A program made the translations under genes and the position numbers. From a virus (taxonomy: Duplodnaviria > Caudoviricetes), in IMG/VR virus record IMGVR_UViG_3300047275_000752, positions 1 through 64,000 of that record: a stretch of 64,000 bases of DNA; one strand, given 5' to 3'. The notes under the pieces were generated by a model. The model did no database searches. It had not been told where the DNA came from and worked only from the letters and a program-made list of their open reading frames with translations. Positions within the stretch are counted from its first letter, which is position 1, and every line of letters begins with the position of its first letter. This document shows positions 63,167 to 64,000 of this stretch, one piece after another.

Positions 63167-63197
63167 CCTGGGGGCGACCAACCCCCAGGATTTTTTT
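63167..63197. terminator. bidirectional intrinsic terminator
   Basis: CCTGGGGG-N7-CCCCCAGG with T7 on the plus strand and an A-rich tract (U-rich on minus) at 63146-63166. Confidence 0.8.
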
Positions 63198-64000
63198 GTG
63201 GGTCCCATCCCCACTAGATCCGTCAATGAGGTTAACGAATGCAACCCTCCCGTACTACCGGAAGAACGTACCCAAGTGATTACGGTCAGAGGGCACTCGG
63301 GAAGACCTCAGGCATCTTGCCGTATCGAACGGCATTTCTATGCTATGTGCATAGCGTGTTCCTTACACTAAGATGCAGGGACCCCTCGGTTTGAGCATCA
63401 TTCCTGGAACCATTTTGTCGGCGCCAACAAAATCGTTCCTATTTGGAAGCTAAGCTTGAGGGGTATTCTTACGTGTTGCCAAGCCGCAAGGCTTGACTCG
63501 CTTCAGGGCTTTACACATAAGGGTGGTAGCAGGAGGTGGGGAGCGACATGTGTATCACCCCACTCTTTCACTTCATCTAGCCGTATGGACCGACCAGCGA
63601 GAGGTGTTACACATCCTGCTAATGTTGCGGGGGTGATCAATCCCCCGGCCTGGTTACCCAGGACTTAGCCCGATACGACGACCGGAGATTTCCAGTCCTT
63701 GCAGAGCGGGGGTTGGTGCCGGTTTCCATTTATACCACCCAGAACTACGGAAACCGGTCAAATGGCATCCTGGGATAACCTCGTTCTCCCTTGGGGGCAC
63801 CCGTAGGCGTCCGGGACGGTGATTGCCGACCGCAACTTGCACAGGGAAGGATAACCCTCACCAACGGAGGATCCCAGAACCTGGCAAACCATACCGACAG
63901 AGCAGTATGGGAATTTAGGATGACCCAGGTGTGCCCTTTTGGGGCAGGGACCTGGACTCTATCCATATCTGCGTGGAAAGCTTTATCCAAAGGACTAAGA
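63198..64000 (-). ncRNA. candidate large structured ncRNA (5' end may lie outside the window)
   Basis: no credible ORF; at least 13 stems including long-range ones; five stems have G-U pairs only on the minus strand; embedded tRNA-like element. Confidence 0.7.
63310..63377 (-). ncRNA. degenerate tRNA-like cloverleaf with a CAU anticodon position
   Basis: TGCATCT-TA-GTGT-AAGGA-ACAC-G-CTATG-CACATAG-CATAG-AAA-TGCCG-TTCGATA-CGGCA-AGATGCC-T. Confidence 0.7.

What the first reader, a model, noticed from the sequence alone, without database searches (positions are those of the whole stretch)
63310..63377. Degenerate CAU tRNA-like cloverleaf nested inside the large RNA
Seen on the minus strand: acceptor TGCATCT/AGATGCC (position 1:72 mismatched), T8-A9, D stem GTGT/ACAC with a 5-nt loop AAGGA, anticodon arm CTATG-CACATAG-CATAG (CAT centred, A instead of U33), a 3-nt variable loop and a canonical T arm TGCCG-TTCGATA-CGGCA. 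There is no CCA. It is flanked by further stems, not by its own promoter. Inference: a non-decoding tRNA mimic serving as an RNase P/RNase Z processing signal that cuts the long RNA, a decoy for host anticodon nucleases targeting CAU tRNAs, or a structural domain.
Basis: partly seen in the sequence, partly recalled or inferred. Interest (0 to 1): 0.8.

Follow-up and report, generated by a model that had tools for sequence, protein, structure and literature searches.

The report
Shrunken non-decoding tRNA mimic in cyanophage RNA
The odd 'tRNA' is real: it belongs to a conserved family of miniature, apparently non-decoding tRNA look-alikes that freshwater cyanophages place where other cyanophages have a normal tRNA, right behind a toxin-less copy of the RNA that silences the bacterial AbiF suicide nuclease, so it most likely serves as a cutting mark for the host's tRNA-processing enzymes.

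Summary
The cloverleaf at 63377-63310 (minus strand) exists exactly as described. ARAGORN calls it (66 nt, CAU); the Rfam tRNA model does not. It is not a decaying pseudogene. I found 29 distinct relatives in cyanophage contigs: 95.5% of stem cells pair, and 12 of 21 pairs show compensatory changes.

The family keeps the tRNA elbow: the GG D loop, the UUCGAUU T loop, and an 8-14 tertiary pair that swaps U-A for A-U. Its "anticodon" loop is C-A-N-A-U-A-G, with A33, a C32/G38 closing pair, and GAU, CAU, UAU or GAC in the middle. CAU is therefore not the conserved feature.

The element starts 2-3 nt after a hairpin homologous to the Rfam abiF motif, the RNA antitoxin of the AbiF HEPN toxin. In 36 of 44 cyanophage loci with that hairpin, an ordinary tRNA (Gly, Leu or Thr) fills the same slot. 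None of 51 phage records encodes AbiF.

Best reading (0.55): a non-decoding tRNA mimic used as an RNase P/RNase Z cutting mark in a modular small-RNA cassette. Its conserved loop probably has a second, unknown ligand. No RNA-end data exist.

Earlier follow-ups in this scan reported similar abiF-plus-tRNA-mimic cassettes in other cyanophage genomes.

The parts
63310..63377 (-). TLS2: miniature tRNA-like cloverleaf. 6-bp acceptor plus a U1.C72 mismatch, D arm GUGU-AAGGA-ACAC, hairpin CUAUG-CACAUAG-CAUAG, 3-nt variable loop, T arm UGCCG-UUCGAUA-CGGCA, no CCA.
   Evidence: Sequence. ARAGORN 63311-63376. Own model R1: 71.1 bits, the only hit in the genome. Covariation in 29 relatives.
63380..63464 (-). 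abiF-motif-like hairpin (M1). Base helix ACCCCUC/GAGGGGU, inner helix AGC/GCU, 3' bulge CAAACC. It ends 2-3 nt before TLS2.
   Evidence: Aligns with cyanophage copies that score 41.9-55.7 bits on Rfam RF03085 (gathering score 37). The closest relatives score 25.4-25.7 bits over the full model. The own copy gets no Rfam hit.
63401..63448 (-). Long apical hairpin inserted at the tip of M1. Relatives have a triloop or an 11-nt hairpin at this place.
   Evidence: Alignment A4. The same insertion occurs in L174/G043 and L239.
63190..63309 (-). Structured 3' tail between TLS2 and the terminator. It has no counterpart in relatives.
   Evidence: Fold. No blastn match in 11 related loci.
63167..63189 (.). 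Bidirectional intrinsic terminator-like hairpin that closes the RNA locus and the convergent YkuD-like gene.
   Evidence: Terminator scan, both strands.
63523..63619 (-). Module G: long hairpin domain (GCAGGAUG...CCUCCUGCUACCAC). It is shared with the spacers of T4-like cyanophage tRNA arrays.
   Evidence: Comparison with L177, L197, L205, L209 and L212. Coordinates.
63627..63710 (-). Modules E and F: CCCGCUCUGCAAGGACUGGAAAUCUCCGGUCG... and CUAAGUCCUGGG...GGGGGAUUGAUCACCCCC. These are the conserved core hairpins.
   Evidence: 88-95% identical blocks in G001, G004 and G007; 79-88% in G002, G003 and G041. Compensatory changes between the own RNA and L003.
63735..63886 (-). Part of the core that is covered by a 152-nt contig of a freshwater metatranscriptome run (X20), 100% identical.
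   Evidence: table 8, record 1. This is a weak sign of transcription only, because DNA carry-over cannot be excluded. TLS2 itself has no cover in the RNA runs.

Best explanation
TLS2 is a member of a conserved and, as far as I could find, undescribed cyanophage family of miniaturised tRNA look-alikes that no longer decode.

It keeps what tRNA-processing enzymes recognise. That is an acceptor/T-arm stack with a U|G junction at its 5' end, and a D-loop/T-loop elbow. It sits in a 'tRNA slot' directly 3' of an abiF-antitoxin-like hairpin.

The locus is transcribed as a string of RNA modules, running from the tRNA-Arg promoter or the extended -10 at 64135-64127 to the terminator at 63189-63167. Host RNase P is proposed to cut at U63377|G63376 (or one base upstream). 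RNase Z or exonucleases are proposed to cut near 63311/63310. This would release the upstream RNA with a defined 3' end just behind the abiF-like hairpin. It would also release the ~66-68-nt mimic and the 3' tail.

The mimic's strictly conserved loop C-A-N-A-U-A-G probably binds a second, unknown partner.

Shown: the fold, its conservation and covariation, the non-canonical loop, the shared slot, and the absence of AbiF genes in the phages.
Inferred: transcription as one unit, every cleavage, and any anti-defence role.
For: 1. Fold and covariation: 95.5% of cells paired, 12 of 21 pairs with changes on both sides, 0 of 500 shuffles reach the score. The unfitted alignment gives 93.4%.

2. Elbow kept: GG is present in every D loop. 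The T loop is UUCGAUU/A in 26 of 29. The 8-14 tertiary pair is U-A in 9 and A-U in 14 of 27.

3. Not a decoder:
- A33 and C32/G38 in 28 of 29; the middle triplet varies; the D loop is 3-7 nt.
- The Rfam tRNA model finds neither the own copy nor L228 or L233.
- R1 finds none of the phage's true tRNAs.

4. Shared slot: the motif GAYGCWCAAACMGRRGGGTCMC-U|GC occurs in 43 IMG/VR contigs plus the own phage. ARAGORN finds, starting at the G (one base earlier in two), tRNA-Gly(UCC) in 24, tRNA-Leu(UAG) in 11 and tRNA-Thr in 1. The remaining 8 carry TLS2.

5. The hairpin is the abiF motif: 50.7 bits in T4-like contigs; 55.7 and 41.9 bits directly 5' of TLS2 in L241 and L229. The own copy aligns with the same helices and bulge.

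6. Modular string: in G043, G002, G003 and G041, TLS2 is followed 5-13 nt later by tRNA-Arg. In G004 it is followed by another module and then tRNA-Arg. The order of modules differs between phages.

7. There is no internal terminator on the RNA strand.

8. No Abi_2/AbiF gene in the own phage or in 50 other carriers.

9. From papers: abiF-motif RNA is the antitoxin that binds and neutralises AbiF (10.1101/2025.04.15.648962; PMC12737573).
Against: - There are no end-mapping data. In the run laid as RNA, a contig identical to this phage covers only 63735-63886. Contigs cannot show RNA ends in any case.
- RNase P and RNase Z do not need an anticodon arm, yet that arm's loop is the most conserved part. 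Processing alone therefore does not explain the element.
- In the own subgroup the acceptor/T stack is 11 bp plus a U.C mismatch, not the canonical 12 bp. In G002, G003 and G041 the T loop is CCCGAUA. Both could weaken RNase P recognition.
- The own abiF-like hairpin does not reach any Rfam score.
- I could not test whether the hosts carry AbiF.
Confidence: 0.55

Rival explanations
1. Decoy or sponge. The mimic, and above all its C-A-N-A-U-A-G hairpin, titrates a host or phage factor that recognises tRNA. Candidates are a tRNA-cleaving defence nuclease, IleRS, TilS or the t6A enzymes. Processing would only be the way the decoy is made. This reading can coexist with the best explanation.
For: - The loop and its closing G-C pair are the most conserved part of the element.
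- The same hairpin stands alone about 10 nt behind ordinary tRNAs in T4-like cyanophage arrays.
- A35-U36-A37 are kept, as in Ile/Met-box tRNAs.
- The next-best R1 hits are ordinary tRNA-Ile(UAU) genes.
- The neighbour is an antitoxin-like RNA without its toxin.
Against: - The loop is not a copy of any real anticodon loop: A33 replaces U33 and G38 replaces A38.
- Position 34 can be G, C, U or A.
- No target is known, and no tRNA-directed nuclease of picocyanobacteria was examined here.
Confidence: 0.2
2. Integral structural domain. TLS2 is never cut out. It is a tRNA-shaped domain of one large ornate RNA, in the manner of GOLLD or ROOL with their associated tRNAs, and serves folding or assembly.
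For: - About 930 nt without a credible gene lie between a promoter-like site and a terminator. The stretch is densely paired, with MFE -405 kcal/mol.
- There are many compensatory changes in the core.
- Modules E, G and M1 keep their order in distant phages.
Against: - No GOLLD, ROOL or any other large-RNA family matches at E<=10.
- Modules are shuffled, lost or separated by true tRNAs and even by a promoter-like site in close relatives.
- In more than 30 contigs TLS2 stands without the large RNA, between an abiF hairpin and a protein gene.
Confidence: 0.12
3. Working tRNA. TLS2 is an unusual but functional tRNA of the Ile/Met box. It would be charged and used in translation or in another aminoacyl-transfer reaction.
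For: - ARAGORN calls it Met (own, L174, L239) or Ile(GAU) in about 30 relatives.
- The G004 copy passes the Rfam tRNA gathering score, 32.5 against 29 bits.
- The triplets GAU, CAU and UAU could all serve Ile codons.
- 17 of 29 members have a full 7-bp acceptor.
Against: - A33 replaces the near-universal U33, and C32/G38 can close the loop to 5 nt.
- G001 and G007 differ at position 34 (G against C), with only four other changes, all in flanks or at the linker. A decoder would not tolerate that swap.
- GAC and an 8-nt loop also occur.
- Position 73 is C or U, not the A of tRNA-Ile (this identity rule is from my own knowledge).
- The D loop is as short as 3-5 nt.
Confidence: 0.1
4. Decaying tRNA pseudogene, or a chance cloverleaf.
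For: The Rfam tRNA model gives no score, and the arms are shortened.
Against: There are 29 distinct conserved copies with compensatory changes in three stems. One tertiary pair also swaps U-A for A-U, and the loop is under strict constraint.
Confidence: 0.02

Closest known systems
mascRNA / MALAT1 and MEN-beta tRNA-like elements (Rfam RF01684)
   Same: A small tRNA-shaped cloverleaf with a reduced D loop and a non-anticodon loop, embedded at or near the 3' end of a long non-coding RNA. There RNase P and RNase Z cut it out and so make the long RNA's 3' end (own knowledge). Two family members give weak matches to this model: 29.7 and 25.6 bits.
   Different: The matches are below the gathering score of 42.5, so this is resemblance of shape and not homology. 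mascRNA is a vertebrate nuclear RNA; this is a phage RNA. No processing is shown here. Here the loop sequence is conserved.
Phage T4 tRNA-operon stable RNAs (species 1 and 2, rnaC/rnaD) and mitochondrial tRNA punctuation
   Same: Non-tRNA RNAs are co-transcribed with tRNAs and released by the tRNA-processing enzymes. In mitochondria, degenerate tRNA-like folds also serve as punctuation. Both points are recalled from my own knowledge and were not checked here.
   Different: No sequence relation was tested. Here the punctuation mark is itself a conserved, dedicated mimic family with its own conserved loop.
abiF RNA motif (Rfam RF03085; AbiFr, RCd22), RNA antitoxin of the AbiF/Abi_2 HEPN toxin
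   Same: The hairpin directly 5' of TLS2 shares the base helix, the inner helix and the 3' bulge with phage copies that score 41.9-55.7 bits.
   Different: This concerns the neighbour, not TLS2. The own copy has a 48-nt apical insertion and no Rfam score. No AbiF gene lies next to it or anywhere in 51 phage records. In bacteria the motif precedes abiF; here it precedes a tRNA or TLS2.
Pseudo-ToxI of phage PhiTE (phage-made antitoxin RNA mimic against ToxIN)
   Same: A phage-encoded, toxin-less copy of a type III antitoxin RNA as an anti-defence device (own knowledge). This is the model for what the abiF-like hairpin plus TLS2 cassette might do.
   Different: It belongs to a different toxin family, has no tRNA-like partner, and is experimentally shown. 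Here the idea is only inferred.
YrlA / bacterial Y RNAs with a tRNA-like domain (PMC4201824)
   Same: Non-decoding tRNA mimicry by a bacterial or phage non-coding RNA, with the T-loop/D-loop elbow preserved.
   Different: YrlA lacks a full cloverleaf with an anticodon-like arm and works with Ro60 (Rsr). No Rfam Y RNA or YrlA match was found here.
GOLLD and ROOL large phage RNAs
   Same: Large structured non-coding stretches in phages next to tRNAs.
   Different: No match at E<=10. The locus here is a shuffled string of modules and not one conserved architecture.

Membership tests
Canonical decoding tRNA (Rfam RF00005) | Four-arm cloverleaf supported by covariation | tested here: met
   21 pairs, 95.5% paired, 12 pairs with changes on both sides.
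Canonical decoding tRNA (Rfam RF00005) | Reaches the family's gathering score (29 bits) | tested here: not met
   The own copy has no match at E<=10. L228 and L233 have none at E<=1. Only the G004 copy reaches 32.5 bits.
Canonical decoding tRNA (Rfam RF00005) | 7-nt anticodon loop with U33 and no Watson-Crick 32-38 pair | tested here: not met
   A33 with C32 and G38 in 28 of 29 members; one member has an 8-nt loop.
Canonical decoding tRNA (Rfam RF00005) | Anticodon conserved within the family | tested here: not met
   GAU 20, CAU 6, UAU 1, GAC 1, other 1. G001 and G007 differ at position 34 (G/C) and otherwise only outside the stems and loops.
Canonical decoding tRNA (Rfam RF00005) | D loop of normal size (about 7-11 nt) and a 4-5-nt variable loop | tested here: not met
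   The D loop is 3-7 nt (own: AAGGA). The own variable loop is 3 nt; most of the family have AAUG or AAUA.
Canonical decoding tRNA (Rfam RF00005) | T loop UUCRANN with G18-G19 in the D loop (the elbow) | tested here: met
   UUCGAUU/A in 26 of 29; GG in every D loop; the 8-14 pair is U-A or A-U in 23 of 27.
Canonical decoding tRNA (Rfam RF00005) | Aminoacylation and use on the ribosome | not testable with these tools
   Needs a bench assay.
abiF RNA motif (Rfam RF03085), for the hairpin 5' of TLS2 | Reaches the gathering score (37 bits) | tested here: not met
   The own copy has no hit. G043, G001 and G007 score 25.4-25.7 bits. The score is met in other carriers: 50.7 bits, and 55.7 and 41.9 bits directly 5' of TLS2.
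abiF RNA motif (Rfam RF03085), for the hairpin 5' of TLS2 | Base helix, inner 3-bp helix and conserved 3' bulge | tested here: met
   Alignment A4: ACCCCUC/GAGGGGU, AGC/GCU, CAAAC(A/C). Three pairs have compensatory changes.
abiF RNA motif (Rfam RF03085), for the hairpin 5' of TLS2 | Lies upstream of an abiF (Abi_2, PF07751) gene | tested here: not met
   0 of 1 (own phage) and 0 of 50 carrier records.
abiF RNA motif (Rfam RF03085), for the hairpin 5' of TLS2 | Binds and neutralises AbiF | not testable with these tools
   Known for RCd22 and AbiFr from papers only (10.1101/2025.04.15.648962; PMC12737573).
mascRNA-type tRNA-like processing element (Rfam RF01684) | Sequence/structure homology at the gathering score (42.5 bits) | tested here: not met
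   29.7 bits (L228) and 25.6 bits (L233); none for the own copy.
mascRNA-type tRNA-like processing element (Rfam RF01684) | Cut out by RNase P and RNase Z | not testable with these tools
   No run with raw RNA reads covers the element.
GOLLD / ROOL large RNAs | Match to the family model | tested here: not met
   No match at E<=10 on the full locus.
tmRNA (including permuted forms) | tRNA-like domain plus tag reading frame | tested here: not met
   ARAGORN finds no tmRNA, and Rfam finds none in the locus.

The most novel reading that the evidence does not exclude
The abiF-like hairpin plus TLS2 is a two-part RNA anti-defence cassette. The host's own RNase P and RNase Z mature a toxin-less AbiF-antitoxin mimic that disarms a cyanobacterial AbiF-type HEPN nuclease. 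The excised mini-tRNA, through its C-A-N-A-U-A-G loop, is a second decoy or ligand for a tRNA-recognising host factor. Cyanophages would then have evolved a dedicated non-decoding tRNA as a maturation handle and bait.
Probability: 0.22. Interest if true: 0.8.

Novelty: new variant of a known kind. Interest (0 to 1): 0.6.

Why it matters
Phage tRNA genes are usually explained by codon usage or by replacement of cleaved host tRNAs. This case is different. One tRNA lineage has been stripped of decoding features, yet it is kept under strong structural selection. It is tied to a toxin-less antitoxin-like RNA, in at least 54 uncultured cyanophage contigs.

If the reading holds, it gives a concrete and testable case of two things. 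First, phages using the host tRNA-processing machinery to manufacture small regulatory or anti-defence RNAs. Second, RNA-level counter-defence against the AbiF family, the proposed ancestor of Cas13, in ecologically important picocyanobacteria.

It also warns annotators. ARAGORN labels these elements tRNA-Met or tRNA-Ile, which would inflate phage tRNA repertoires.

Tried and rejected
- **Rfam on the window and the full locus.** Gathering threshold and E<=10 gave no GOLLD, ROOL, Y RNA, tmRNA or ribozyme; only the true tRNAs appeared.
- **blastn of the locus against 50,697 phage records.** Only the tRNA-Arg matched. A canonical family member plus its hairpin found nothing.
- **The search for related loci with the YkuD-like neighbour.** No relative found.
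- **Exact 18-mers of the core.** In IMG/VR this found only the one known relative. In metagenome contigs it gave 58 hits, none homologous to the phage RNA. About 30 of them are an unrelated soil element that shares one hairpin.
- **Genome-contig scan for the 3' half of the hairpin.** All 11 hits lacked the partner 5' strand and read on like ordinary coding sequence; none is a cyanobacterium. I therefore could not test whether hosts carry AbiF with this RNA.
- **Sequencing runs.** The phage DNA is present in about 19 freshwater, aquaculture and drinking-water runs from 11 studies. The only RNA run holding part of it has no cover over TLS2, and contigs cannot show ends. No conclusion on processing can be drawn from this.
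- **Kissing pairing between the TLS2 loop and the hairpin.** GAUAG/CUAUC fits the T4-like copies but not the own subgroup, so I dropped the idea.
Rejected, because CAU is the minority triplet in the family.
- **The cloverleaf reading of the second tRNA-like element (TLS1).** Rejected; see Noticed in passing.

Full report
**What is there**

The window is the first 64,000 bases of a 72,398-bp virus record. Its portal protein has 143 relatives in IMG/VR. One of them is a 72,332-bp record, which is the size I recall for Synechococcus siphovirus S-CBS2. The DNA occurs in freshwater metagenomes.

ARAGORN calls tRNA-Met(CAU) at 63311-63376. The Rfam tRNA model gives nothing, even at E<=10.

The element lies in about 930 nt without a credible gene. 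On the minus strand this stretch follows tRNA-Arg(UCU) at genome 64213-64139 and an extended -10 (TGGTATAAT, 64135-64127). Both lie beyond the window. The stretch ends at a bidirectional terminator at 63189-63167. No large-RNA family of Rfam matches it.

**Conservation**

A relative with a 74% identical phosphoesterase gene (L003) carries homologous RNA blocks and a copy of the cloverleaf with compensatory changes. blastn of the locus against 50 portal relatives found pieces in 11 of them.

The order of the pieces differs between phages:
- In G043 the 5' domain is joined directly to the segment that holds the cloverleaf, and tRNA-Arg follows 5 nt later.
- In G002, G003 and G041, tRNA-Arg also follows the cloverleaf.
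- In G004 another module and tRNA-Arg follow it.
- In G001 and G007 the RNA ends in AT-rich sequence right after it.

So the 'large RNA' is a string of modules and not one fixed architecture.

**The tRNA slot**

In every copy the cloverleaf is preceded by GAYGCWCAAACMGRRGGGTCMC-U. That motif is found in 43 IMG/VR contigs of 8-172 kb. ARAGORN finds, starting at the G after that U (one base earlier in two Leu loci), tRNA-Gly(UCC) in 24, tRNA-Leu(UAG) in 11 and tRNA-Thr(GGU) in 1. The cloverleaf (TLS2) fills the slot in the other 8 loci, counting the own phage. G63376 therefore aligns with position +1 of real tRNAs.

The motif is the 3' half of a hairpin that Rfam identifies as the abiF motif (RF03085, gathering score 37):
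- 50.7 bits in T4-like cyanophage contigs.
- 55.7 and 41.9 bits directly 5' of TLS2 in L241 and L229.
- 25.4-25.7 bits in the closest relatives.
- No score for the own copy, which has a 48-nt hairpin inserted at its tip but aligns in both helices and in the bulge.

According to 10.1101/2025.04.15.648962 and PMC12737573, abiF-motif RNA is the antitoxin that binds the HEPN toxin AbiF. PMC9964418 lists an abiF Rfam hit in cyanophage S-CREM1 without further analysis. No Abi_2 gene is present in the own phage or in 50 other carriers.

**The TLS2 family**

A pattern built on the D arm, the loop and the T loop found 54 IMG/VR contigs. There are 27 distinct sequences, and 29 with two more found by model search.

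Stem pairing and covariation:

| Measure | Value | Control |
|---|---|---|
| Cells paired, MAFFT alignment | 93.4% | 36-54% when partners are slid |
| Cells paired, model-fitted alignment | 95.5% | 35-56% when partners are slid |
| Pairs with changes on both sides | 12 of 21 | |
| Covariation score | 0.547 | 0.199 in shuffles; 0 of 500 reach it |

The D stem GUGU/ACAC never varies, but the pattern fixed it.

Other features:
- The D loop is 3-7 nt and always holds GG.
- The T loop is UUCGAUU/A in 26 of 29.
- Position 8 and the first D-loop base are U-A in 9 and A-U in 14 of 27. This swap fits a preserved tertiary pair.
- The loop is CAGAUAG in 20, CACAUAG in 6, and CAUAUAG, CAGACAG and CCAUGGAG once each. 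So it has A33, C32/G38 and a free middle position.
- Seventeen members have G1-C72. Twelve, including the own copy, have U1.C72 preceded by C. A U|G step is therefore always present at the 5' edge.
- Position 73 is C or U. There is no CCA, but the phage's true tRNAs lack it too.

The model R1 hits the own genome once and none of its true tRNAs. Among the 50 portal relatives, 11 have a strong copy. The next-best hits are ordinary tRNA-Ile(UAU) genes, which may point to the origin of the family.

**Context elsewhere**

In at least 30 contigs TLS2 ends about 20 nt before the start codon of a ~185-aa phosphoesterase (phrog_547). It is then preceded by an abiF hairpin or by another hairpin. In the own phage that gene lies upstream of tRNA-Arg.

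The hairpin that forms the TLS2 'anticodon' arm also stands alone about 10 nt behind ordinary tRNAs in T4-like arrays.

**Reading**

The comparative picture best fits a non-decoding tRNA mimic retained as a substrate for RNase P and RNase Z. The mimic would punctuate a polycistronic string of small RNAs and define the 3' end of the abiF-like RNA. Processing does not require the anticodon arm, so the strict conservation of its loop implies a further ligand. I keep a decoy role as the main rival or complement.

A working tRNA is unlikely, and a pseudogene is excluded. The CAU-specific idea falls.

No transcript ends are known. The only RNA-library evidence is a 152-nt identical contig over 63735-63886.

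**Relation to earlier notes**

Earlier follow-ups in this scan reached similar readings for other cyanophage genomes. I arrived at the abiF link from my own Rfam search before reading them. They are not independent evidence.

Two first-reader notes concern the same locus. Against the first, I find no GOLLD-like family. Against the second, TLS2 is not anticodon-less, and the 'TLS1' cloverleaf does not hold.

Noticed in passing
genome 64141-64021 (minus strand; beyond the window end); L002:4021-4141: The other 'tRNA-like' element (TLS1) is not a cloverleaf. Its supposed 3' acceptor strand ACUUUCC pairs downstream with GGGAAGU, and that pairing covaries. An extended -10 (TGGTATAMT) sits on its supposed 5' strand in 6 of 7 phages. 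The consensus fold is a multi-hairpin domain. One hairpin carries a GG loop and another a T-loop-like hairpin (GCAGG-UUCGAUG-CCUGC).
   Followed up: partly
L172, L178, L180, L192, L196, L203, L204, L207: A free-standing hairpin with the TLS2 loop, for example GUUAGG-CAGAUAG-CCUAG (CAAAUAG in L204). It follows ordinary tRNAs (Leu, Thr, a CAU tRNA) by about 10 nt in T4-like cyanophage tRNA arrays.
   Followed up: no
L205:1222-1293 and the same element in L173, L177, L180, L186 and others: A second tRNA mimic: CCUCUGGUAGUCUAUUGGUAAGGAC...GGUUCGAUUCC...CAGAGG, with a non-anticodon middle arm (26.3 bits on Rfam tRNA). It lies 5' of the abiF hairpin in T4-like contigs. It is present in cultured phages S-PM2, S-RIM32, S-CREM1 and S-SZBM1. 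In the last, the matched stretch carries a tRNA-Ala annotation.
   Followed up: partly
L006, L008-L010, L012-L016 and about 20 more soil or peat metagenome contigs: The 18-mer hairpin GACTGGAAATCTCCGGTC of the phage core recurs in a conserved soil element. That element lies behind a TTGAC-N17-CATATT promoter and continues GGCGCTGGGCYTCTGG... There is no wider similarity to the phage RNA, and its identity is unknown.
   Followed up: no
L224:6912-7487, L229:3744-4301; own genome 64237-64806 (minus strand): A ~185-190-aa phosphoesterase (phrog_547; nearest structure Aquifex aq_1665, 1XM7). In many relatives it starts about 20 nt after TLS2. In the own phage and in L003 it lies just upstream of the RNA locus. 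This is a conserved neighbourhood of unknown meaning.
   Followed up: partly
L151 (G024), between tRNA-Arg and the TLS1 domain: An AT-rich insertion of about 600 nt that appears to encode a Cys-rich HNH-type endonuclease. It separates tRNA-Arg from the RNA module and looks like a homing-endonuclease insertion. This was read by eye from the sequence; no family search was run.
   Followed up: no
L233:10289-10525: A group I intron (RF00028, 80.8 bits) in a contig that also carries the most canonical TLS2 copy.
   Followed up: no
window 63735-63886: A 152-nt contig of a freshwater metatranscriptome run is 100% identical to the core of the RNA locus. A second contig of that run (103 nt, higher depth) comes from a diverged relative.
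   Followed up: partly
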